From an uncultured archaeon (GTDB lineage Archaea; Asgardarchaeota; Jordiarchaeia; Jordiarchaeales; Jordiarchaeaceae): DNA of 64,000 nucleotides. Positions 16,358 to 39,044 of the stretch are shown here, piece by piece. The position numbers and the translations under genes are program-made. The notes beneath the pieces were generated by a model. That model saw nothing but the letters and a program-made list of their open reading frames with translations, did no database searches and was not told the DNA's origin. Where the stretch lies: positions 1,248 through 65,247 of the forward strand of contig CAZECW010000193.1 in the NCBI GenBank assembly GCA_964510585.1, read 5' to 3'. How positions within the stretch are numbered: position 1 is the stretch's first letter; each line of letters opens with the position of its first letter.

Positions 16358-17578
16358 GTGAGATCTTTGAGGCTAAAAGATTTTTCCATCACTTCTGCTA
16401 GAGAAATCTTGGGTATTACATGTTTAAGTCTCTTTGTGGATTCCCTTGGTTACGGGATAGTGATTCCAATTCTTCCCACATATGTTTTGTCTCTGGGGGC
16501 CACAGATTACGATTTGGCACTTATTTTTTCCTCATTTGCCATGGTGCAGCTCTTCACTACCATACCTTTTGGCTTGTTTTCGGATAAGTATGGGCGAAAA
16601 GTGTTCATGGTTACGGGAATGCTTCTTCTTGGCATTTCTTTTATGTATTTTCCCTTCGCTCATAGTGTTCTTGCGCTTATTACTTGTAGGGTGGTGCAGG
16701 GCTTGGCCGCCTCTGCTACTTGGTCTTCTGCCCTGGCTCTGGTTGCCGATGCGTATCCTGGTGGTGATAAGGGTGAAAAGTTGGGTATTGCAAATGGGGC
16801 TGTGGGTTTGGGTAACATTGCTGGTCCATTGGTGGGGGGCGTTTTGGGTGATATTAATTTTGGTTTGCCCTTTTTAGTTATAGGTTCTATTGCTTTTTTC
16901 GCCTGTTTCTATATGGTTATGAGATTAAAGTTGGAAAGAGGCGAAGCTGTGGAGGCTCCTGTAGCTTTTCGTGAGATGTTGCGGGGGGCTATCCGAGTCA
17001 GGAATGTTTTGTTGGTGGTTTTCATCAACCTTTTGGTAGCTGTGTTTTTCGGCTTCATTGAGCCACTTTTGCCGCCCTACTTGGGTGGGAGGTTTAACAT
17101 GTCGGGTACGCAGATTGGTTTATTCTTTGGGGGCGCCTTTCTAACCTATGTAGTTTCTCAGCCCTTTGTAGGAAGATTGTCGGATAGGTATGGGAGAAAG
17201 ATGTTTATTGTGAGTGGGTTAATTGCTCTTTGTATCACAAATGTGGTGATTCCCTATCTCTCTGATGTGTGGACTCTCTTTGCACTGCTTGTTGTTATGG
17301 GGGTTTTTTGGAGTTTAGCGTATACGCCGCTTATGCCTCTTGCTGTGGATTCTTTGAGGAGCAAAAATAGGGAAACTTTTGGGACAATGTCTGGATTCTT
17401 CAATATTGCCTGGAACTCGGGATACAGCATAGGTCCCATAATAGGGGCTCTGGTAACCTCCTATTTTGGTTTTGAATCAATATTCTGGTTTTTCAGCGGG
17501 TTGCTTGTGGTGATGATAATTGTTTCCCAAACCTTGATAGCTGAGAAGAGGGTGTTTGTCGCGAAGGCGACTAATTAA
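16358..17578 (+). CDS. MFS transporter (DHA1-like), paralogue 1
   Basis: 12-TM hydrophobic profile. Motif A-like GLFSDKYGRK and repeated GRLSDRYGRK. Confidence 0.8.
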   Translation: MRSLRLKDFSITSAREILGITCLSLFVDSLGYGIVIPILPTYVLSLGATDYDLALIFSSFAMVQLFTTIPFGLFSDKYGRKVFMVTGMLLLGISFMYFPFAHSVLALITCRVVQGLAASATWSSALALVADAYPGGDKGEKLGIANGAVGLGNIAGPLVGGVLGDINFGLPFLVIGSIAFFACFYMVMRLKLERGEAVEAPVAFREMLRGAIRVRNVLLVVFINLLVAVFFGFIEPLLPPYLGGRFNMSGTQIGLFFGGAFLTYVVSQPFVGRLSDRYGRKMFIVSGLIALCITNVVIPYLSDVWTLFALLVVMGVFWSLAYTPLMPLAVDSLRSKNRETFGTMSGFFNIAWNSGYSIGPIIGALVTSYFGFESIFWFFSGLLVVMIIVSQTLIAEKRVFVAKATN

Positions 17579-17727
17579 AAATTTTTTTATGAATAATAAC
17601 AAATAAATTTAAATAAATAGCCAAAAATTTCTTATTTTTTAAGTCTGAGAAATCGGTTAGCCTTAAAAATTCTCCAGCCATTTTCTTTCTGGAGAAGACC
17701 AAAGAGCCGAGAAGGGGGCGTTAAAAT

Positions 17728-19008
17728 ATGCAGAGACATTTTAAGAAGATGCCCCGCTCAACCGAAATACTCATAATGGTTTGTACCAGTGCATTTACTG
17801 ACTCATTGGGATACGGGATAATAATTCCGTTCCTCCCACAGTACGCCATGTCCCTTGGCGCGTCTGACCTAGATGTGGGCATTATCTTCGCCACCTACGC
17901 ACTGGTACAGTTAGTGACCACCATACCATTCGGTTTGCTATCTGATCGCTATGGTAGAAGACCCTTCATGATTTCGGGAATGCTCCTTCTCGGCATAGCT
18001 TCACTATTATTCCCCCTAGCCCAAACCGTGCACCTGATGATATTATGTAGAGCAATACAGGGTTTGGCGGCTGCGGCGACCTGGTCTTCAGCAGTAGCAT
18101 TAGTGGCAGACACATTTCCGGGAAACGATAAGGGAACAAAACTCGGAATAATGGCGGGAGTAACCAATATGGGAGGCATTGCAGGACCCTTACTGGGAGG
18201 AGCCCTATCCGATGTGAATTTCAACATACCATTTCTATTAATTGCCGCTCTATCAATATTTATGTTCGCCTACATGTTCTTCCGACTAAAACTGCCCCCC
18301 AGAGAAAATAAGGCGGGGGAAATTTCGTACATGACGATGATAAGAGGCGCCCTGAGAATCAGAAACGTTGTTATAATCATACTCATTAACGCGTTGACAA
18401 TGATTTTCTGGGGCTTCGTAGAACCCTTAATGCCCCCGTACCTCTCTGGTAGATTTTCACTGTCAAGTACCCAGATTGGCATCATTTTTGGTGCCATGTC
18501 TCTCATCTATGCCTCAATTCAACCATTAGTGGGCAGACTAACTGACAAGTATGGACAGAAAAGATTCATAATAGCGGGAATGGCCCTCCAAGCATCCATA
18601 GGTTTAATCATACCACTATGCAGTGATGTGGTAAGCTTAGCCGTTTGCCTGGTGCTAATCGCCGCGGTGGGTGCCATAGCTTGGACACCATTAACACCCC
18701 TATATGTAGAATCTCTCCAAGATGGAAACATGGAAGCCTACGCAACAGTTGGCTCTCTCTTTGGCACCGCATACTACATAGGATACATTATTGGGCCGGT
18801 AATTGGAACTCTGGTAAGTTCCCATTTCGGATTTGGAGCAGTCTTCATCTTTAACAGCATAATACTATTAGCCCTAGTTCTCTTATCAGGATTATATATT
18901 AAAGACGGAAAAAGGGCAGAGGCAAAAACGCAAGTAATGGAGTCGAAAATTTCCAGACAAAGAATCATAAACCGCAAAAAACCTCAGGAGCTAACAATAA
19001 GAGCTTAG
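17728..19008 (+). CDS. MFS transporter, paralogue 2
   Basis: Estimated ~75% aa identity to paralogue 3 and ~55% to paralogue 1. GLLSDRYGRRP and GRLTDKYGQKR motifs. The start may be the internal M (MPRSTEIL… or MVC…). Confidence 0.8.
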   Translation: MQRHFKKMPRSTEILIMVCTSAFTDSLGYGIIIPFLPQYAMSLGASDLDVGIIFATYALVQLVTTIPFGLLSDRYGRRPFMISGMLLLGIASLLFPLAQTVHLMILCRAIQGLAAAATWSSAVALVADTFPGNDKGTKLGIMAGVTNMGGIAGPLLGGALSDVNFNIPFLLIAALSIFMFAYMFFRLKLPPRENKAGEISYMTMIRGALRIRNVVIIILINALTMIFWGFVEPLMPPYLSGRFSLSSTQIGIIFGAMSLIYASIQPLVGRLTDKYGQKRFIIAGMALQASIGLIIPLCSDVVSLAVCLVLIAAVGAIAWTPLTPLYVESLQDGNMEAYATVGSLFGTAYYIGYIIGPVIGTLVSSHFGFGAVFIFNSIILLALVLLSGLYIKDGKRAEAKTQVMESKISRQRIINRKKPQELTIRA

Positions 19009-19386
19009 ACCTACTGAACATAAGATTGGTTTCACTTATCCCCACAATTAAAATTGTTCCGCCACTATTTACTTTCCTCACCTTCCCTTTTTATGGCCTG
19101 GAGCCGCTGTACATTTGCCATCTCCAGCAACTTGGGGAAAACTAAACCAACCCCAATTTAACTCATTCAAATTAGTGGAATTCTCTCTAATACCGTAACC
19201 TATTTTCAATTAATACAGGCAAGGGTTCAATAAATAGTTGGTGTGACTTATTTCTTCCCATTACAGGTTAGAATGTCACAAGCCACACTATTTTTTCAAT
19301 CATTATTGAGATTTCTTCTTTTATCATTTTTGAAAAGTTAAGCTTAAAAATTTAAGAGCTACTGGTTTTTTGAAAAATGGAATTAA

Positions 19387-20631
19387 TTGTGGGACCTGAT
19401 TTTTTTGCGGTTATCACTAGCCAGGCCTAAACCACCTATTGAAATATTAATCATGGTTTGCCTAAGTGCATTCATAGACTCCTTAGGCTACGGGATAGTG
19501 GTTCCTTTTCTTCCCCAGTATGCTTTGTCACTGGGAGCCTCGGATTTAGATTTGGGTATTATTTTTTCCTCCTATGCCCTGGTGCAGCTGGTGACATCTG
19601 TTCCTTTTGGGCTGATGTCTGACCGTTATGGCAGAAGATGGTTTATGATTAGCGGAATGCTTCTTCTGGGTGTGGCTTCTCTTGTTTATCCTTTGGCGCA
19701 AAGTGTGCTTATGATATCAGCATGTAGAGCTATACAAGGTTTGGCGGCTTCTGCTACCTGGTCTTCTGCCATAGCATTAGTGGCTGACACGTTCCCAGGG
19801 AGGGATAAGGGGGAAAAGTTAGGAATCGCGACTGGAGTATCCGGTATGGGAGGCATTGTGGGCCCCATGGTGGGGGGCGCCTTATCTGACATAAATTTTA
19901 TTTATCCCTTCCTCCTTATAGCTGTCCTTTCTTTGGCTATGTTCACCTACATGTTTTTCAGATTGAAAATTTCCAGAAAAGAAAAATTAGTTGAAGCTCC
20001 ACCCTATGTGGAAACCATTAAAAAGGCTCTTGGAATCAGAAACATTCTCATAATAATAGTTATCAATGTTTTAACCACAATTTTCTGGGGATTCATTGAG
20101 CCCTTAATGCCCCCATACCTTTCTGGACGTTTTTCGCTCTCCGCTACACAAATAGGTTTAATTTTCGGCGTGGCTTCTCTGAGCTACGCGGTCTGCCAAC
20201 CATTTGTGGGCAGACTATCTGATAGATACGGAAGAAAGATTTTTATTGTAACAGGTATGGCTCTACTTGCAGCTGTGAATCTAATTATCCCATTTTGTGT
20301 AGACCCAGTAAGTTTAACAATAGTTATAATGACCACCGCATCCATCGGAGCCTTGGCCTTTACTCCCTTGACTCCCCTGGCCATAGAGTCGCTTCAAGAC
20401 CAAAATATTGAAGCCTATGCTACAGTGAACTCGCTGTTTGGTATCGCTTTCTATATAGGTTATAGCGCTGGCCCGGTGATTGGAGCTTTAATCAGTTCAT
20501 ATTTTGGATTCGAATCAATGTTCTTCTTCTACAGCATAATACTGTTAACAGTTCTCATCGTATCCCAGGCCAAATTAAAAGAAATAATGAAAAAAGAGGA
20601 AAAAGCAGTGATAAGAAGCACAAAAAAATAA
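19387..20631 (+). CDS. MFS transporter, paralogue 3
   Basis: GLMSDRYGRRW and GRLSDRYGRKI motifs. Nucleotide similarity to paralogue 2 extends into the 5' end (…gaaatattaatcATGGTTTG…). The start is possibly the internal ATG at ~19453. Confidence 0.8.
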   Translation: MWDLIFLRLSLARPKPPIEILIMVCLSAFIDSLGYGIVVPFLPQYALSLGASDLDLGIIFSSYALVQLVTSVPFGLMSDRYGRRWFMISGMLLLGVASLVYPLAQSVLMISACRAIQGLAASATWSSAIALVADTFPGRDKGEKLGIATGVSGMGGIVGPMVGGALSDINFIYPFLLIAVLSLAMFTYMFFRLKISRKEKLVEAPPYVETIKKALGIRNILIIIVINVLTTIFWGFIEPLMPPYLSGRFSLSATQIGLIFGVASLSYAVCQPFVGRLSDRYGRKIFIVTGMALLAAVNLIIPFCVDPVSLTIVIMTTASIGALAFTPLTPLAIESLQDQNIEAYATVNSLFGIAFYIGYSAGPVIGALISSYFGFESMFFFYSIILLTVLIVSQAKLKEIMKKEEKAVIRSTKK

Positions 20632-32622: not shown

Positions 32623-33255
32623 TTAGAGGGATGGCTGTGGAGATGGCTGCATAAGTGTAATTGTTATTAGTCCGGTGTGTATTCTGTATTTGTCTTGATC
32701 CGCCTCTAGTATTTCTGCTTTTACTAGTTTTTCTAGTGATTCCTCAATAGTTGCTTCCTCCAATCCCAACTTTAGTAAATCCTCTTTGGCAGCCTCCCCT
32801 TTTTCAACTATGAATTCAAGGATTTTACCTATGGCAGTTGTGGAATCGCATCCCAAGAGGTCGCAGATTTTTCTATTCTCAGGATAGTTTACTTTTAATG
32901 AGTTGATGTTGTAGTTTTTTTCGTCTATACTATCAAACCAGCCTGCGAAGGCTGCGACTCGACCGACTAGTGAGAGTTGAGCTAGGGCTACCTTTTGTTC
33001 GCTTGCAAATTTTAGGATGACTGTGATGCCGCTTGACACGCGTAGAATGAGGTAGTTTCCCGTGGAGAGAAAATCGCCCACCTTTAATTGGGGGAAAAGG
33101 TTGATTAAATCCCTTAATACTTCGTTGTCATCGAAATTATATTGGTAAAGAATTTTTCCCGAGTTGGCGACAACCACTCCTCCCACCGGCCTGCCACTTC
33201 CACACTGCGCAAAAACATTTTTGAAAGCCAGTTCGGGGTTTATCTCCAAAGACAC
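32623..33255 (-). CDS. Roadblock/LC7 (MglB-like) domain protein with a C-terminal winged-helix domain
   Basis: N-terminus …PVGGVVVANSGKILYQYNF…DFLSTGNYLILRVSSGITVILKFASE has the roadblock beta-alpha-beta-beta pattern. C-terminus …ICDLLGCDSTTAIGKILEFIVEKGEAAKEDLLKLGLEEATIEESLEKLVKAEIL looks wHTH-like. Directly downstream of the small GTPase on the same strand. Confidence 0.5.
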   Translation of the reverse strand: MSLEINPELAFKNVFAQCGSGRPVGGVVVANSGKILYQYNFDDNEVLRDLINLFPQLKVGDFLSTGNYLILRVSSGITVILKFASEQKVALAQLSLVGRVAAFAGWFDSIDEKNYNINSLKVNYPENRKICDLLGCDSTTAIGKILEFIVEKGEAAKEDLLKLGLEEATIEESLEKLVKAEILEADQDKYRIHTGLITITLMQPSPQPSL

Positions 33256-33307
33256 CGACCTCTAGAAATACTATTTTGGGAGCTTAAGGGTCAAACATCT
33301 ATTTTCT

Positions 33308-33868
33308 CTAGGATGTTTCCTCACTCAAGTTCAGGTACTTGGTTGCAATCATTTTTACCAGTTCTTTGAGCAGTTCTTTTGTGCCGTCGCCGCGTAGGGC
33401 TGAAGTTTCAAAGTAGTCTATTCCCAGTTTTTCACAAAACTTTTTTGCTTGCTCTGTGGATACATGTCCCTTATCTATTTTCCTTATGTCGATTTTATTT
33501 CCAACTATTATTTTGGGAATACCGTCAACGTTTTCCTGCTTCATTATTTTTAACCATTCCTTGATGCCCTCAAGAGTCTTAGGCTGGGTAACATCAAACA
33601 TTAATACAGCGGCCTTTGCTCCCTTATAAAAAGAGCCGGAAATTTCGCGAAACTGGTCTTGGCCCCCGATGTCCCAGAAATGCAGCCAGATTTCCTGTTT
33701 TGAATGTTTTACGTCAATGAGTCCAAAATCAACCCCTATAGTTGTACGGTATATGGGATCAACCAATCCCTCAGTGTATCTTTGCTTAATGGTGGTTTTT
33801 CCCACCCCACCGTTACCCAGTAAAAGCACCTTAAATATGTACTTTTCTTTCAAGAGAGTTAACCTCAC
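33308..33868 (-). CDS. Ras-superfamily small GTPase, Rab-like
   Basis: G1 GNGGVGKTT; switch I YRTTIGVDF; G3 WDIGGQDQF; G4 GNKIDI; G5 ETSAL. Closely follows the Rab consensus (YxSTIGVDF / WDTAGQERF / GNKxDL / ETSAK). No C-terminal prenylation Cys motif. Confidence 0.8.
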   Translation of the reverse strand: MRLTLLKEKYIFKVLLLGNGGVGKTTIKQRYTEGLVDPIYRTTIGVDFGLIDVKHSKQEIWLHFWDIGGQDQFREISGSFYKGAKAAVLMFDVTQPKTLEGIKEWLKIMKQENVDGIPKIIVGNKIDIRKIDKGHVSTEQAKKFCEKLGIDYFETSALRGDGTKELLKELVKMIATKYLNLSEETS

Positions 33869-33972
33869 TCACAGTGCCTGTTGCTACAATTTTATTTTTC
33901 CGCTAAAAATAAATAGCTTTTGGCTCTTAAGATTTTTCATATTACAACTTTTAGTTTTGTGGGGTTTCTCCT

Positions 33973-34977
33973 TTGATTCACGCTCTACTTATTATCACGC
34001 AAGACGGAATGGGGCACGTAGCATTTGATGATGGCTTGGGTATTAATTTCACTCTTTTTTCGGGCATGCTGATGGCCTTAAACAAGTTTCTATCCCAGAT
34101 TTTTGGTGGGGAACAAATTAACCGTGAAATTGAACTTGAACTGTACTCGCTTCTACTTAGGGAAACAGGTAAGGGTCTATGGGTTTGTATTCACGATGCG
34201 TCTGATAATATGGAACTTATGTATTCAAAATTGGACCAACTAATCAGTTTGATTGAGAAGGAGGTAGACTTCGAAAATGACTTGAAAGGTACTTTAGATC
34301 TGGATGCCAAATTAAAGAAGAAAATAGAAAAAATTGTTAAAATTAAAACCGTACCCAGATCACTTCAATCATTCATAAGTAAAGAGATTAACTGGCTATC
34401 CGAGGGACGAATGATAAATATTATTCTCCAGAATGTCTACCTTATTTCTCTGGAGGGAGGAATAGCTTCCAGCTGGGAAAAAGAAGCCAAACCGGACATC
34501 GGCACCCGCTACGCATGTTTAAAGATGCTAAAAAGCCTACCCAACACTGTGAATCTCAAACTGGAGCTTTCCATCAAACACGAGGCTGGAACTGAGGAGT
34601 GGCGGTTCAGAAGAATAGGGGATAGCGAATTTTTCCTATTTCTGAGAGCGATTATGAACGAGGGCTCAAGAGCTCTCTTCGGGATTCTAGTCGACAAGAT
34701 AGTGGAAGGTCTAGTTGATGTACTAAAAGAGAAAGCCTCCATCGAACCAATAGTAGAACCCAGCGCCATTCTCCCCCCACAGAAGCCACTAGCAACCCTA
34801 AAGCAGAAAAAACAGGTCACCCTTATGAAGGAGGAGAAAATTCCCAAGGACGAGGAATTATTAACCAGTTTAGAAACCCTTGTTCAGAAGGTAGCAAAAA
34901 GAATCAAAACACTCTCAACGATAGAAGTCAAAGAAGAGAATATTAAACCAACCAAAAGGGCCGAGGTGGATGATTAG
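33973..34977 (+). CDS. Longin/roadblock-like domain protein with a Lys/Glu-rich C-terminal region
   Basis: N-terminus MIHALLIITQDGMGHVAFDDGLGINFTLFSGMLMALNKFLSQIFGGE…LYSLLLRETGKGLWVCIHDASDN fits a longin/roadblock-type beta-beta-alpha-beta-beta-alpha pattern. Divergently oriented from the GTPase gene. Confidence 0.4.
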   Translation: MIHALLIITQDGMGHVAFDDGLGINFTLFSGMLMALNKFLSQIFGGEQINREIELELYSLLLRETGKGLWVCIHDASDNMELMYSKLDQLISLIEKEVDFENDLKGTLDLDAKLKKKIEKIVKIKTVPRSLQSFISKEINWLSEGRMINIILQNVYLISLEGGIASSWEKEAKPDIGTRYACLKMLKSLPNTVNLKLELSIKHEAGTEEWRFRRIGDSEFFLFLRAIMNEGSRALFGILVDKIVEGLVDVLKEKASIEPIVEPSAILPPQKPLATLKQKKQVTLMKEEKIPKDEELLTSLETLVQKVAKRIKTLSTIEVKEENIKPTKRAEVDD

Positions 34978-35045
34978 CATAACTATCCAAAATATAGCCC
35001 AAAATTTTATGGATTACTGGGTAAAGTTTTAAATGTCCATTTTGT

Positions 35046-36140
35046 GTGGATTTTTTTACAAAGAAATATGGTGAGGGAGCAGATATTAAAGATGGAAAAC
35101 TGGAGTTCTACTCTCCCCTAATGAATAGTCTAATAAAACCTCTCATCGAGAAAAAGAGGAAGGAACACGAAACACTGTTCAACGAAGTTGGAGTTCTAGT
35201 TCAGGCGAATTTTTCTCAGAGAACCATCGAGCTATACATGGAAATTTTGAAAAATAAACAAACCATTGAATATCTTTTGGAGCAGGGTTACAATTTACTT
35301 TCAATATCCGGGTTACTGACAAACATTGCTCAAATAAACGTTTTAAGGGCCAAAATTGAAGGCCGCGTTAAAAAGAACTTGGAGAGCAAGATTGAAGAGG
35401 CTGAGGAGAAACTAAACTCGGCTAAAAGGCAACTAAACCAAACCTATGAGAATATAAAGTCCTATCAAGGATTCGAATGGTTAATATTCGCATACACATA
35501 TCTTAAAGATGCTGAAACCAGTGTCAACACCCTAAAAGCCAGAGAGGAGGTAGACTCAGAATTATTCTATCAAGCATGCCTAGCAATAGAGCTATGCAAT
35601 ATTTTCACAGACTTCACCAAAATTGTAGAAGACATCGACGAGAAGGGGAAAAAAGCCGAAGATTTAAAAAAATCCATGAAAGACTTCGCCTTTAGAATGA
35701 TCCAAACCGCAGAATACACTCTCAAAACTGTGCAACCAGAACACGTCAACAATCCCGAAGAGGAATTCTTACTCCTAAAAACAACAAACTACTACGTCCC
35801 AGTAATGGAGAAGGCATTTAAAGAAGGAGATTACCTCAAAACAATCGACACCGCCCAACAAGTAATATACAATGCAGAAATAATAAAAGCAGCATTCCTT
35901 CAAGCACCCCAATCCTATATTAGAAACATGATAACACAAAAATTCTTAGAGTTCAACCAACTAATACTCCTAACCAGACAAAAAGGCAAATTCGACGCGA
36001 TACTACCCCTATTCTACTATGAAAAAGCAGCGGGGCCCCTGGGTGAACCTTCAAAAATGATAGCAAGCGCAAACCTCTCCATGACCCTAATAGGAGTAAT
36101 GGAACAAGAACTAAGACCATCAGCAATATTCACCACTTAA
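35046..36140 (+). CDS. Hypothetical all-alpha (coiled-coil-rich) protein, 364 aa
   Basis: ORF only; helical and heptad-like composition; no recognised family. Confidence 0.35.
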   Translation: MDFFTKKYGEGADIKDGKLEFYSPLMNSLIKPLIEKKRKEHETLFNEVGVLVQANFSQRTIELYMEILKNKQTIEYLLEQGYNLLSISGLLTNIAQINVLRAKIEGRVKKNLESKIEEAEEKLNSAKRQLNQTYENIKSYQGFEWLIFAYTYLKDAETSVNTLKAREEVDSELFYQACLAIELCNIFTDFTKIVEDIDEKGKKAEDLKKSMKDFAFRMIQTAEYTLKTVQPEHVNNPEEEFLLLKTTNYYVPVMEKAFKEGDYLKTIDTAQQVIYNAEIIKAAFLQAPQSYIRNMITQKFLEFNQLILLTRQKGKFDAILPLFYYEKAAGPLGEPSKMIASANLSMTLIGVMEQELRPSAIFTT

Positions 36141-36816
36141 AAAATATCTAAAAAATGTTGCTTTGACGAAAATGCATCATCCAAGCTCACATGACAAAAA
36201 AGGGGACACTATTCACAAGGCGGAAACTATAAAGTTACCAATGTGCATTATAGAGCCCAGAAATTTGAATTATTATAAATCCATTGAAATTGTTTTAATA
36301 TCATCAGCTTAAAGACAAAATTCATAACCTAACGTACTCCACGGTTAAAGTGGTTGGAGAAGTACCATTTTTCGTCGAAAAAGTAAAATGTTTCAAGAAT
36401 GGAAACATCAAAAAGTAGAAACGAAAACAAATTTTTCGCAAGCCAATATGGTGATTAAGAATTAATTGAGTTCATCCCTTATTTTGTGTTCTAAACTGTG
36501 AGAAAACGCATAAGCCATATGTCATAACATTGACTCCTAACTTTTTATTTTACTATTGATTTTGCTAACTGCTTGTTTCCACCCCTACTCAACCGTGGTT
36601 TTCACGGAGTAGCGCTAAAACTTGTTAATTTAGGCTAAGCAAGTGGAATGTGGGGCTTTTCTAGCCTCCTCCACAAGGCTTCCATGCACCAACAGTTTTT
36701 ATTGAATATACGGGTGTGTGCCTTTTTGAAATCAAGGCGAACTTCTCTACTTCACCAGACAAAATTATCCAAATACTTAAATAATTTAATAGCGCTAAAT
36801 TATAAAAACCATCTGA

Positions 36817-37989: not shown

Positions 37990-39044
37990 TTAGGCTAATT
38001 CCATTAGGTTGAGATAATATTCGCTTTCTCCATTCTGTACTATTTCTTGGATTATTTTTCCTATTTTTTCTCCTACTCCGGGGATTTTGGTTATTTTTTC
38101 TTCTTTTGTGAGTTTGACTATGTCTTGCGTGGTTTTGAAAATTTGATTTGCGGCTTTTCGATAGGCGCTTCCCCTTTTTCCGGTTATGTCTAGGAAGTAT
38201 GCTATTTGTTGGAGTAAGTGTGAGCATTCGTCTTTGATTGGGATTTTTCCATGGAAAAGTTTATGGGGAATTCTTAGTGGGATTTCATACTTTCTGCATG
38301 CTTCAAGAACGGTGCTGTTTATTTTTTGGTTGTATTCTTCGTTTGCGTGGTATCCTTGTTCACTGCATATCTGGCTGTACTTTGGGATTAGTTCCGGATG
38401 TTTTTCTTGCAGTTTTTGGTAGTAGTATTTTTTCTGGCGATCCCTGAGCATCAAGCCTCCTGCAATGATGAAGCTGGCTCCCTCCATTTTGGCCCTGGAA
38501 ACAAGTTTTTCGATGGATTCTGTGCTATCTGAAATAAAGGGTAAGATGGGCATTATCACCACTCCTGTTGGAACTCCCATTTTTGAAAATTTTCCAATTA
38601 CTCTGAGTCTTTCTTCTGGTGGGGAGGCTTGGGGCTCCCAGGTTTTCCAAACTTCGTCCTCAAGGCTGGTGATGGAGAAGGCTACTATGGCTAGGTTTTG
38701 CCCGTTTATTTCTCCTATTAGGTCGATGTCCCTCTCCACTAGGCTGGACTTGGTTAGAATGAAAATGGGGAAATTTAATTCTTTTATTGCCTCAAGCACC
38801 CTGCGGGTTACCTCATACTTTTTTCCAGGGGCTGGTATGAATCACCTATCCCTCCACCCACAGCCACGATTCCTTTTTCCCTGTTTCTCAGTTCTTTTTT
38901 CACAAGTTGGGGGGCGTTGACCTTTATGTAAATCTTGCTTCCAATGTCCAAATCCAAATAGTACCTTTCAGACCTTCCATCGCAATATTCACAGGCATGC
39001 TGACATCCCCGGTAAATATTCATAGCATATTTTCCAGAAACCAA
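37990..39044 (-). pseudogene. Radical SAM protein with a C-terminal helix-hairpin-helix (SPL/Rv2578c-like), split by a -1 frameshift in an A6 run
   Basis: N-terminal part (38808..39044) contains …YRGCQHACEYCDGRSE (CxxxCxxC)…GDSYQPLEKSMR*. The downstream frame continues …(P)GKKYEVTRRVLEAIKELNFPIFILTKSS… C-terminus …ITKIPGVGEKIGKIIQEI (HhH). One extra A in the ggAAAAAAgt run would fuse the frames. Confidence 0.7.

What the first reader, a model, noticed from the sequence alone, without database searches (positions are those of the whole stretch)
32623..36140. Rab-like small GTPase flanked by roadblock(MglB-like)-wHTH, longin-like and helical proteins: a candidate minimal GTPase-regulatory module
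The 186-aa protein at 33308..33868 has every G-box in Rab-like form (GNGGVGKTT, YRTTIGVDF, WDIGGQDQF, GNKIDI, ETSAL). It is not the MglA/Arf-like form common in prokaryotes. Immediately downstream on the same strand is a roadblock/LC7-fold protein fused to a winged helix. Roadblock proteins are the MglB-type GAPs of prokaryotic Ras-like GTPases. Divergently transcribed is a 334-aa protein whose N-terminus has a longin/roadblock-like pattern. Longin domains are the core of eukaryotic Rab/Arf GEFs (TRAPP, DENN, Mon1-Ccz1). Next to it is a 364-aa all-helical protein of unknown family. Clusters of Rab-like GTPases with roadblock/longin genes are hallmark eukaryotic-signature features of Asgard archaea. 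The roadblock+wHTH fusion and the adjacent helical protein are not described architectures to my knowledge.
Basis: partly seen in the sequence, partly recalled or inferred. Interest (0 to 1): 0.8.

Follow-up and report, generated by a model that had tools for sequence, protein, structure and literature searches.

The report
Asgard Rab-like GTPase with roadblock and longin-like neighbours
An Asgard archaeon (class Jordarchaeia) keeps a Rab-like small GTPase gene next to a roadblock/winged-helix protein and a probably longin-type protein; this pairs one GTPase with two candidate regulators that can be tested, but it is a variant of a gene arrangement already predicted for Asgard archaea.

Summary
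The four ORFs are real. The window comes from a Jordarchaeia (Asgard) genome.

- **GTPase (33308-33853, 181 aa after start correction):** a complete Ras-superfamily switch. Its best matches are eukaryotic Rabs and Thorarchaeota Rab. It has no prenylation cysteines.
- **p3 (divergent, 334 aa):** only borderline longin evidence for the N-domain (Pfam Intu_longin_1 at 20.7 bits against a cutoff of 23.7; Bet5/TRAPPC1 E=0.028). Its structure model failed. Its second domain matches nothing. The family has only 7 clusters among 1.84 billion representatives, and the five clusters that carry a name or locus title are Asgard.
- **Synteny:** the trio is kept in every Jordarchaeia locus recovered. One Sifarchaeia-like genome has a GTPase, a winged-helix protein and a p3 homologue together. 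Other lineages do not.
- **p4 (364 aa):** adjacent only in close relatives, so it is not part of the module.

Related ideas are already published. Liu et al. predicted a Roadblock / Rab-like GTPase / DENN operon, and asCOGs list "longin fused to HTH" families. My verdict is a plausible GTPase-regulator module that is a new variant of a known kind, of moderate interest.

The parts
33308..33853 (-). Rab-like small GTPase, 181 aa (ORF callable from GTG 33868; probable true start TTG 33853). Motifs: P-loop GNGGVGKTT, switch I TIGVDF, switch II WDIGGQ with the catalytic Gln, NKID, ETSAL. No C-terminal Cys.
   Evidence: Pfam Ras 5e-40, Roc 4e-27, Arf 1.5e-19. Top PDB hits are Rab30, Sec4, Rab3, Rab35, Rab1, Rab8 and Rab11, plus Thorarchaeota Rab 7ezb. 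G motifs are invariant in orthologues. Start corrected from the conserved GAGGT and homologue starts.
33256..33307 (-). 52-nt spacer between the GTPase stop and the p1 ORF. It carries a GAGGT Shine-Dalgarno sequence for the TTG start at 33249. No conserved promoter block and no terminator-like site, so the two genes are probably one transcript.
   Evidence: The spacer alignment is poorly conserved (62% mean identity, no block) apart from the SD/start. No terminator-like site was found there.
32623..33249 (-). p1, 208 aa: roadblock/LC7-fold domain followed by an acidic winged helix.
   Evidence: 17 homologues, all Jordarchaeia/Freyarchaeia. AlphaFold mean pLDDT 70; the N-domain 10-residue blocks range from 74 to 89.
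32926..33249 (-). p1 roadblock domain (residues ~5-110), topology alpha-beta-beta-alpha-beta-beta-beta-alpha.
32677..32868 (-). p1 winged helix-turn-helix (residues ~130-193), net acidic.
33854..33972 (.). Divergent promoter region between the GTPase and p3. The core 33898-33932 (TTCCGCTAAnAATAAATAGnTTTTGnnnCTTAAGA) is almost invariant. Back-to-back TATA-like boxes form a 9-bp inverted repeat, TTTATTTTT/AAAAATAAA, at 33891-33913.
   Evidence: Alignment of 7 Jordarchaeia loci gives invariant runs at 33898-33906, 33908-33916, 33918-33922 and 33926-33932. The control spacer shows no such block.
33973..34977 (+). p3, 334 aa: a two-domain protein restricted to Asgard archaea, with a C-terminal tail specific to Jordarchaeia.
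   Evidence: An exhaustive profile search found only 7 representative clusters in 1.84 billion proteins. The five that carry a name or locus title are Asgard: Jordarchaeia, Borrarchaeum/Promethearchaeota and Thorarchaeota. The conserved TTG start has a GGGGT SD-like element upstream.
33973..34272 (+). p3 N-domain (residues 1-100), probably a longin fold.
   Evidence: Pfam Intu_longin_1 E 5e-4, 20.7 bits against a cutoff of 23.7, found in 6 of 12 family members. The N-domain profile's best PDB hit is Bet5/TRAPPC1, E 0.028. DSSP of the low-confidence model reads beta-beta-alpha-beta-beta-beta-alpha. Not established.
34336..34740 (+). p3 second globular domain (residues ~122-256), unknown fold. 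Invariant residues: FP, DGG, EGW, RIG.
   Evidence: Conserved in all 7 distant clusters. No Pfam or PDB hit. No hhalign similarity to the p1 roadblock domain or to the p3 N-domain.
34843..34920 (+). p3 conserved C-terminal amphipathic helix (PKDEELLxSLExLVQKVAKRI), present only in Jordarchaeia.
   Evidence: Alignment A2. Absent from the distant homologues.
35046..36140 (+). p4, 364 aa (probably 339 aa from ATG 35121). Jordarchaeia-specific protein of unknown family. A neighbour here, not a conserved part of the module.
   Evidence: Adjacent to p3 only in the window, L015 and L017. About 10 kb away in Ga0315314 and Freyarchaeum, and on another contig in Jordarchaeum sp.. No Pfam or PDB family.

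Best explanation
This is a small-GTPase switch module restricted to a few Asgard lineages.

Shown:
- A complete, catalytically competent Rab-like GTPase is followed after 52 nt by p1, a protein with a roadblock domain and an acidic winged helix.
- The pair faces p3, a two-domain Asgard-only protein, across a strongly conserved bidirectional promoter.
- The trio is kept intact across Jordarchaeia.

Inferred:
- The GTPase and p1 are co-transcribed.
- The p1 roadblock domain dimerises and docks on the switch regions of the GTPase, as MglB, the LAMTOR pairs and the Rag C-terminal domains do. In that role it would act as a GAP or platform.
- p3 uses its longin-like N-domain as the second regulator, a GEF or the other half of a platform, as longin subunits do in the TRAPP core, Mon1-Ccz1 and DENN.
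- The acidic winged helix of p1 is a protein-protein adaptor that couples the GTPase state to an unknown effector. It is probably not an operator-binding domain.
- The GTPase is soluble or is recruited through its partners, because it has no lipidation motif.
For: - GTPase identity and intact G1-G5 motifs with the catalytic Gln.
- p1 roadblock fold by two independent fold searches on a model whose N-domain 10-residue blocks score pLDDT 74-89.
- p1 winged helix. It is net acidic.
- Gene layout: a short, unconserved GTPase-p1 spacer with an SD sequence and no terminator. The divergent promoter has a 35-bp near-invariant core.
- The trio is present in all Jordarchaeia loci recovered, down to 68% protein identity, and a rearrangement breakpoint lies immediately beyond p3.
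- A second class (Sifarchaeia/Borrarchaeum-like genome GCA_019057385.1) has a Ras-family GTPase, a Zn-ribbon protein with two winged-helix-like repeats, and a divergent p3 homologue.
- Borderline longin hits from two independent libraries.
- Rough chance estimate (inference): Lokiarchaeum has 109 GTPases, 38 roadblock and 41 longin domains (PMC4917890) among about 5,400 genes (gene count from my own knowledge). On those numbers, a GTPase flanked on both sides by superfamily members is expected about 0.02 times per genome.
Against: - No interaction, GAP or GEF activity was tested or modelled.
- The whole neighbourhood (acyl-CoA dehydrogenase, FKBP, NAD kinase) is also syntenic within Jordarchaeia. 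Conservation of the trio within that class is therefore weak evidence of functional coupling.
- The distant p3 relatives with readable neighbours (L009, L010/L011, L012/L013 on the downstream side only, and L023-L025) have no small GTPase beside them. L014 is cut 292 nt upstream.
- The winged-helix protein in the Sifarchaeia-like locus is not detectably homologous to p1.
Confidence: 0.55

Rival explanations
1. p1 is a one-component transcription factor. It would combine a roadblock/GAF-like sensor domain with a winged-helix DNA-binding domain and bind the conserved core of the divergent promoter. It would either autoregulate the locus or turn the nucleotide state of the GTPase into a transcriptional output.
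For: - Pfam hits of the C-terminal domain to TrmB, MarR_2, HTH_24, HTH_20 and Crp-type HTH families across the p1 family.
- Weak whole-chain Foldseek similarity to CodY and CRP, which are sensor-plus-wHTH proteins.
- A 35-bp near-invariant block, including a CTTAAG palindrome, lies between the TATA-like box and the p3 start.
- A winged-helix protein also sits between the GTPase and the p3 homologue in the Sifarchaeia-like locus.
Against: - The winged helix is net acidic (-8 to 0), and the presumed recognition helix plus wing is -5 to +2. That is unusual for an operator-binding wHTH.
- The best structural and Pfam matches are TFE-alpha/TFIIE/RPC62-type winged helices.
- The conserved block is largely explained by BRE/TATA elements of two back-to-back core promoters.
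- CTTAAGRRT is not enriched in the window.
Confidence: 0.22
2. The trio is the Jordarchaeia version of the operon Liu et al. predicted for most Asgard archaea: a LAMTOR-like Roadblock protein, a Rab-like GTPase and a DENN-domain protein. In that reading p3 is a very divergent longin-plus-DENN (FLCN-like) GEF.
For: - The composition matches: a roadblock-superfamily gene, a Rab-like GTPase, and a two-domain protein that starts with a longin-like domain (paper text).
Against: - No Pfam DENN, uDENN, dDENN or folliculin hit for p3, for its C-domain, or for 7 distant homologues, even at E up to 10.
- No PDB hit to FLCN, FNIP, DENND, SMCR8 or C9orf72.
- The p3 family has only 7 clusters, which does not fit 'most Asgard'.
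- The second domain is about 135 aa, which is short for a cDENN plus dDENN (from general knowledge).
Confidence: 0.15
3. The adjacency is inherited synteny with no functional coupling. The GTPase, p1 and p3 would then act in unrelated processes.
For: - The surrounding metabolic genes are equally syntenic in Jordarchaeia.
- Most distant p3 homologues are not next to a GTPase.
- Tran et al. report that MK-D1 GTPase genes are generally not in operons with roadblock or longin genes.
Against: - The tight layout: a 52-nt same-strand spacer and a shared, conserved divergent promoter.
- Both neighbours belong, or probably belong, to the superfamily that regulates small GTPases.
- The arrangement recurs in a second class.
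- The chance expectation is low (rough estimate from the numbers).
Confidence: 0.08

Closest known systems
MglA-MglB (prokaryotic Ras-like GTPase with a roadblock-domain GAP, encoded in one operon)
   Same: A small GTPase gene is followed on the same strand by a roadblock-fold protein. MglB and MglC are among the structural matches of p1.
   Different: p1 carries an extra winged helix. A third, longin-like partner is transcribed divergently.
Predicted Asgard operon: LAMTOR-like Roadblock + Rab-like GTPase + DENN-domain protein (Liu et al. 2021, bioRxiv 10.1101/2020.10.19.343400)
   Same: The same logic and two of the three component types. It was proposed as a GEF module for Rab/Rag-type GTPases.
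   Different: p3 gives no DENN signal at sequence level. p1 has a winged helix. The p3 family is confined to a few lineages. Jordarchaeia is not among the twelve Asgard lineages named in that paper's text.
Eukaryotic longin/roadblock GTPase platforms: TRAPP core (Bet5/TRAPPC1-Trs23) for Ypt1/Rab1, Mon1-Ccz1 for Rab7, Ragulator-Rag
   Same: The p3 N-domain's only sequence-level matches are Bet5/TRAPPC1 and the INTU/CCZ1/HPS4 longin domain. The p1 roadblock domain matches the RagC C-terminal domain, LAMTOR (MP1/p14), Mon1 and Ccz1 structurally.
   Different: All matches are fold-level or sub-threshold. There are no Bet3-type subunits here, no multi-subunit complex genes, and the GTPase has no membrane anchor.
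Thorarchaeota Rab (PDB 7ezb) and MK-D1 Rab-like GTPases (Tran et al. 2024, PMC10933270)
   Same: A Rab-like core without the C-terminal cysteine extension. 7ezb matches at E 8e-30 over the full length.
   Different: Tran et al. found that MK-D1 GTPases are generally not in operons with roadblock or longin genes, so GTPase-regulator pairs could not be read from the genome. Here the pairing is explicit.
[quoted passage not shown]
   Same: The same class of architecture as p1 (a roadblock/longin-superfamily domain plus HTH), and possibly as p3. These families are listed with hits in Atabeyarchaeia/Freyarchaeia genomes.
   Different: I could not map p1 or p3 to a specific asCOG. These families are catalogue entries with no functional or structural study that I found.
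Lokiarchaeota Roadblock-Longin fusion protein (PDB 8yqk/8yql)
   Different: Only 16-19% identity. Here the domains are on separate proteins with extra domains. I found no publication on that fusion protein.

Membership tests
Rab family (Ras superfamily) | Complete G1-G5 nucleotide-binding motifs with a switch II Gln | tested here: met
   GNGGVGKTT, TIGVDF, WDIGGQ, NKID and ETSAL, all invariant in orthologues. Pfam Ras 5e-40.
Rab family (Ras superfamily) | Closer to Rab than to Ras, Rho, Ran, Arf or MglA | tested here: met
   59 of the 60 best PDB hits are eukaryotic Rabs and one is Thor-Rab. No phylogenetic tree was built.
Rab family (Ras superfamily) | RabF1-F5 motifs (IGVDF, KLQIW, RFRSIT, YYRGA, LVYDIT; motif list from my own knowledge) | tested here: inconclusive
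   By direct reading: IGVDF is exact, and WLHFW, QFREIS, FYKGA and LMFDVT are approximate. Switch II is DIGGQ rather than DTAGQ.
Rab family (Ras superfamily) | C-terminal Cys prenylation motif on a hypervariable tail | tested here: not met
   The protein ends ...KYLNLSEETS. No C-terminal cysteine motif occurs in any orthologue. This agrees with Thor-Rab and MK-D1.
Roadblock/LC7 (MglB-like) domain: p1 N-terminus | alpha-beta-beta-alpha-beta-beta-beta-alpha fold matching solved roadblock structures | tested here: met
Roadblock/LC7 (MglB-like) domain: p1 N-terminus | Sequence-profile match to Pfam Robl_LC7 | tested here: not met
   No hit in p1 or in any of the 17 family members at E up to 1.
Roadblock/LC7 (MglB-like) domain: p1 N-terminus | Dimerisation and GAP or platform activity on the cognate GTPase | not testable with these tools
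   No multimer prediction or biochemistry was available.
Longin domain: p3 N-terminus | Profile match above the curated threshold to a longin family | tested here: inconclusive
   Intu_longin_1 at 20.7 bits against a cutoff of 23.7, E 5e-4, in 6 of 12 close members and none of the 7 distant ones. Bet5 E 0.028.
Longin domain: p3 N-terminus | beta-beta-alpha-beta-beta-beta-alpha fold | tested here: inconclusive
DENN/FLCN-type module (Liu et al. operon) | DENN core domain after the longin domain | tested here: not met
   No DENN, uDENN, dDENN or folliculin Pfam hits. No PDB hits to DENN-module proteins. This is sequence level only; the fold was not tested.
DENN/FLCN-type module (Liu et al. operon) | Roadblock-superfamily gene and Rab-like GTPase in the same cluster | tested here: met
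Winged-helix transcription factor (MarR/TrmB/ArsR type): p1 C-terminus | Winged helix-turn-helix fold | tested here: met
Winged-helix transcription factor (MarR/TrmB/ArsR type): p1 C-terminus | Basic recognition helix and wing suited to DNA contact | tested here: not met
   Net charge of helix 3 plus wing is -5 to +2, and of the whole domain -8 to 0, across 17 members.
MglA-type GTPase | Sequence similarity to MglA | tested here: not met
Canonical NKxD and DxxGQ are present.

The most novel reading that the evidence does not exclude
The module could be a GTPase-gated winged-helix switch. The roadblock domain of p1 would read the nucleotide state of the Rab-like GTPase. Its TFE/TFIIE-like winged helix would pass that state to the transcription machinery, or to the conserved divergent promoter. 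p3 would act as the exchange factor. In that case at least some Asgard 'Rab-like' GTPases would control gene expression rather than membrane identity. The recurrence of a winged-helix protein between a GTPase and a p3 homologue in a second Asgard class would then reflect a conserved output.
Probability: 0.12. Interest if true: 0.8.

Novelty: new variant of a known kind. Interest (0 to 1): 0.45.

Why it matters
What the many Asgard small GTPases do, and which roadblock or longin proteins regulate which GTPase, is an open question. Dey et al. 2016 list operon analysis of Loki GTPases as an outstanding question. Tran et al. 2024 note that the genome layout of MK-D1 does not reveal GTPase-regulator pairs.

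This locus gives one explicit, compact and conserved pairing: a Rab-like GTPase, a roadblock/winged-helix protein and a probable longin protein. All three are small enough for direct tests of complex formation, GAP/GEF activity and structure. If the pairing holds, it would be a minimal model of the longin/roadblock platforms that activate Rab and Rag GTPases in eukaryotes.

The value is tempered in three ways. A similar operon has already been predicted. The p3 fold is unproven. The arrangement is confined to a few lineages.

Tried and rejected
- **p3 profile searches.** The full-length profile against PDB gave nothing relevant. The C-domain profile against PDB and Pfam gave nothing.
- **hhalign comparisons.** p3 against p1, the p3 C-domain against the p1 roadblock domain, and the p3 N-domain against its C-domain all showed no similarity.
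- **The search for related loci.** With p1 in genome contigs it found only Jordarchaeia/Freyarchaeota. With distant p3 relatives in metagenomes it gave 5 loci, none with a GTPase.
- **afdb50 fold library.** Unavailable, so I could not survey how widespread roadblock-plus-wHTH proteins are.
- **L014.** The 292 nt upstream of this deep Jordarchaeia p3 homologue hold no GTPase start, but the contig ends there.
- **CTTAAG motif.** Not enriched in the window.
- **p4.** The SNARE hit (E 0.07) appears in 1 of 10 members, so I rejected it as coiled-coil noise. The JGI label 'S18 serine protease' has no support.
- **Amphipathic-periodicity secondary-structure guess for p3.** Too crude to use.
- **asCOG mapping.** The supplementary table holds counts per genome, not gene identifiers, so I could not map p1 or p3.
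- **Literature.** A search for 'Roadblock-Longin' found no paper on PDB 8yqk.

Full report
**Observation**

The four ORFs exist at the reported coordinates. Each has protein homologues at 62-100% identity, and all hits that carry names come from Candidatus Jordarchaeia/Freyarchaeota MAGs, apart from one p3 fragment labelled Bathyarchaeia. The species-representative genome scan found p1 only in Jordarchaeia/Freyarchaeota records. The closest is isolate QZM_A3, at 91% identity. The window is therefore from a Jordarchaeia genome, a class of Asgard archaea (taxonomy; Freyarchaeota is treated as a synonym of Jordarchaeia in 10.1101/2024.02.28.582541).

Aligning the intergenic regions across seven loci shows a conserved GAGGT Shine-Dalgarno sequence about 8 nt before a TTG or ATG. 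This moves the GTPase start to 33853 (181 aa, matching the 181-182 aa called in relatives) and the p1 start to 33249 (208 aa).

**The GTPase**

- Pfam: Ras 5e-40, Roc 4e-27, Arf 1.5e-19.
- PDB: 59 of the 60 best hits are eukaryotic Rabs (Rab30, Sec4, Rab3, Rab35, Rab1, Rab8, Rab11, Ypt1; E 6e-34 to 8e-30). The other is the Thorarchaeota Rab 7ezb, matched over the full length.
- All G motifs, including the switch II Gln, are invariant in the Jordarchaeia orthologues, and there is no C-terminal cysteine motif. Tran et al. describe the same for Thor-Rab and the MK-D1 GTPases (PMC10933270).

I did not build a phylogeny. 'Rab-like' here rests on best-hit evidence.

**p1 (32623-33249, minus strand)**

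The AlphaFold model from a 17-sequence alignment has mean pLDDT 70. The N-domain blocks score 74-89 and the winged-helix blocks 70-87, and the two domains are joined by a disordered linker. The N-domain topology is alpha-beta-beta-alpha-beta-beta-beta-alpha.

- Foldseek agrees independently: 8yql/8yqk E 1e-4, MglB 2e-3, Thor roadblock, MP1/p14.

**p3 (33973-34977, plus strand)**

This is the weakest part of the finding.

- Full-length p3 hits Pfam Intu_longin_1 at E 0.0036. The isolated N-domain hits at E 5e-4, 20.7 bits, below the 23.7-bit cutoff. Six of 12 close homologues also hit, but none of the seven distant ones.
- A profile of the N-domain built from diverse members has Bet5/TRAPPC1, a longin subunit of TRAPP, as its best PDB hit at E 0.028. 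It aligns helix 1 through strand 5.

Two independent libraries thus point to longin families at borderline significance. I rate the N-domain as probably longin, not shown. The second domain (residues ~122-256) is conserved across the family, with invariant FP, DGG, EGW and RIG. It matches nothing in Pfam or PDB, and it matches neither the p1 roadblock profile nor the p3 N-domain.

An exhaustive HMM search of 1.84 billion cluster representatives found only seven clusters. Those that carry names or locus titles are Asgard: Jordarchaeia, Borrarchaeum/Promethearchaeota and Thorarchaeota. They cover the two globular domains but lack the Jordarchaeia-specific C-terminal amphipathic helix.

**p4 (35046-36140, plus strand)**

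p4 is a real, conserved Jordarchaeia protein with no Pfam or PDB family. It follows p3 only in the window and in two ~90%-identical relatives, L015 and L017. In the Ga0315314 contig and in Candidatus Freyarchaeum it lies about 10 kb away, behind a block that begins with a ~1,400-aa GCS2-like protein. In Jordarchaeum sp. it is on another contig. It is not part of a conserved module.

**Layout and synteny**

The GTPase-p1 spacer is 52 nt. It is poorly conserved apart from the SD sequence and start, and it has no terminator-like site. That fits one transcript.

The divergent GTPase/p3 intergenic region contains a 35-bp core (33898-33932) in which 30 positions are invariant across loci whose proteins are only ~70% identical. 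In the window, two TATA-like boxes form a 9-bp inverted repeat around CCGCT. An invariant CTTAAGA lies just downstream of the p3-side TATA-like box.

The order p1 <- GTPase <- | -> p3 is present in every Jordarchaeia locus recovered. The flanking metabolic genes are syntenic too, so conservation within the class is weak evidence on its own. It does help that a rearrangement breakpoint lies immediately after p3 while the trio stays intact.

Outside the class, the picture is mixed:
- One Sifarchaeia/Borrarchaeum-like genome (GCA_019057385.1) has a Ras-family GTPase, then a 265-aa Zn-ribbon protein with two winged-helix-like repeats (PadR 7e-4, FUR 8e-4), then a divergent p3 homologue. That protein is not detectably related to p1.
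- A Thorarchaeota locus, an SMTZ1-type sediment lineage and two further lineages have no GTPase beside the p3 homologue.
- In the SMTZ1-type lineage the p3 homologue is always preceded by a 272-aa protein with weak N-terminal similarity to p3. That suggests a paired partner.

**Mechanism**

The best-supported reading is a GTPase switch with two cognate regulators from the roadblock/longin superfamily.

Shown:
- The domain identities of the GTPase and of p1.
- The gene layout.
- The conservation pattern.

Inferred from established knowledge of MglA-MglB, Ragulator-Rag, TRAPP, Mon1-Ccz1 and DENN (Levine et al. 2013, PMC3747258; listed):
- p1 binds the GTPase through a dimeric roadblock platform and acts as a GAP or scaffold.
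- p3 acts as a GEF or as the second half of a platform.
- The acidic winged helix is an adaptor.

The fact that the best structural match of p1 is the roadblock half of a Loki Roadblock-Longin fusion is a weak Rosetta-stone hint that p1 and p3 may contact each other. I put this reading at about 0.55. The rivals are a p1 transcription factor, possibly gated by the GTPase (about 0.22), a divergent form of the published Roadblock/Rab-like/DENN operon (about 0.15), and mere synteny (about 0.08). The first two rivals are not exclusive of the main reading.

**Comparison with what is known**

- Liu et al. (10.1101/2020.10.19.343400) predicted an operon 'conserved in most Asgard archaea' that encodes a LAMTOR1-like Roadblock protein, a Rab-like GTPase and a DENN-domain protein. 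They proposed it as a GEF module.
- The asCOG names reproduced in Valentin-Alvarado et al. [quoted passage not shown] So neither a Rab-like GTPase clustered with roadblock or longin genes, nor a roadblock/longin-HTH fusion, is new as a kind.

Three things are specific here. The third partner is a very narrow, Asgard-only two-domain family with no DENN signal. The arrangement is bidirectional, with a highly conserved promoter core. The roadblock protein carries an acidic TFE-like winged helix.

Tran et al. stress that MK-D1 GTPases are generally not in operons with such regulators, so pairs cannot be read from that genome. Dey et al. list operon analysis of Loki GTPases as an outstanding question. 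This locus offers one concrete pair to test.

**Verdict**

This is a real and plausible GTPase-regulator module, a new variant of a known kind. Interest is moderate (0.45). The main gaps are the unproven fold of p3 and the absence of any interaction evidence.

Noticed in passing
window 37990-39044 (-): A radical-SAM plus helix-hairpin-helix gene is split into two ORFs in different frames. The N-terminal piece carries CxxxCxxC. The C-terminal piece matches Radical_SAM model positions 68-162 and HHH_8. The break sits at a run of six A (about 38817-38822). One more A would restore a continuous reading ...DSYQPLEKKYEVTRRVLEAIKEL.... Possible causes are a homopolymer sequencing error, a pseudogene or a programmed frameshift.
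   Followed up: partly
L010 7047-8804; L024/L025 4040-5795: In an SMTZ1-type sediment Asgard lineage, the p3 homologue is always preceded on the same strand by a 272-aa protein with no Pfam family. That protein has weak N-terminal similarity to p3 (hhalign E 0.0026). It may be a paralogous partner pair, in the manner of Mon1-Ccz1 or FLCN-FNIP.
   Followed up: partly
L006 5628-7608: The GTPase next to the Sifarchaeia-like p3 homologue has WDFGGE (no catalytic Gln) and TKSD instead of NKxD, so it may be a slow or non-hydrolysing switch. The protein between them has an N-terminal CPNCG Zn-ribbon and two internal repeats with weak winged-helix hits.
   Followed up: partly
window 33891-33913: A perfect 9-bp inverted repeat, TTTATTTTT / AAAAATAAA, flanks CCGCT. 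It looks like two back-to-back TATA-like boxes sharing a central G+C element, for the divergent GTPase and p3 genes. The left arm is less conserved in relatives than the right.
   Followed up: partly
window 35046-35121: Most p4 homologues are 339 aa and begin at the residue that aligns with M26 of the window ORF, so the true start is probably ATG 35121. JGI names one homologue 'predicted S18 family serine protease', which no search here supports.
   Followed up: partly
window 34978-36816 compared with L001-L005 and L021: Compared with other Jordarchaeia, the window lineage lacks a block of about 10 kb between p3 and p4. That block holds a ~1,400-aa GCS2-like protein, a CDC48_N protein, an amidohydrolase and others. 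The window also lacks the genes between p4 and the LplA-like ligase. This is a lineage-specific deletion or relocation that brings p4 next to p3.
   Followed up: partly
window 16358-20631 (+): Three tandem paralogous ORFs of 406-426 aa have similar N-terminal sequences (…DSLGYGI(V/I)(I/V)P…). They look like tandemly duplicated membrane transporters. They were not scanned against any family library.
   Followed up: no
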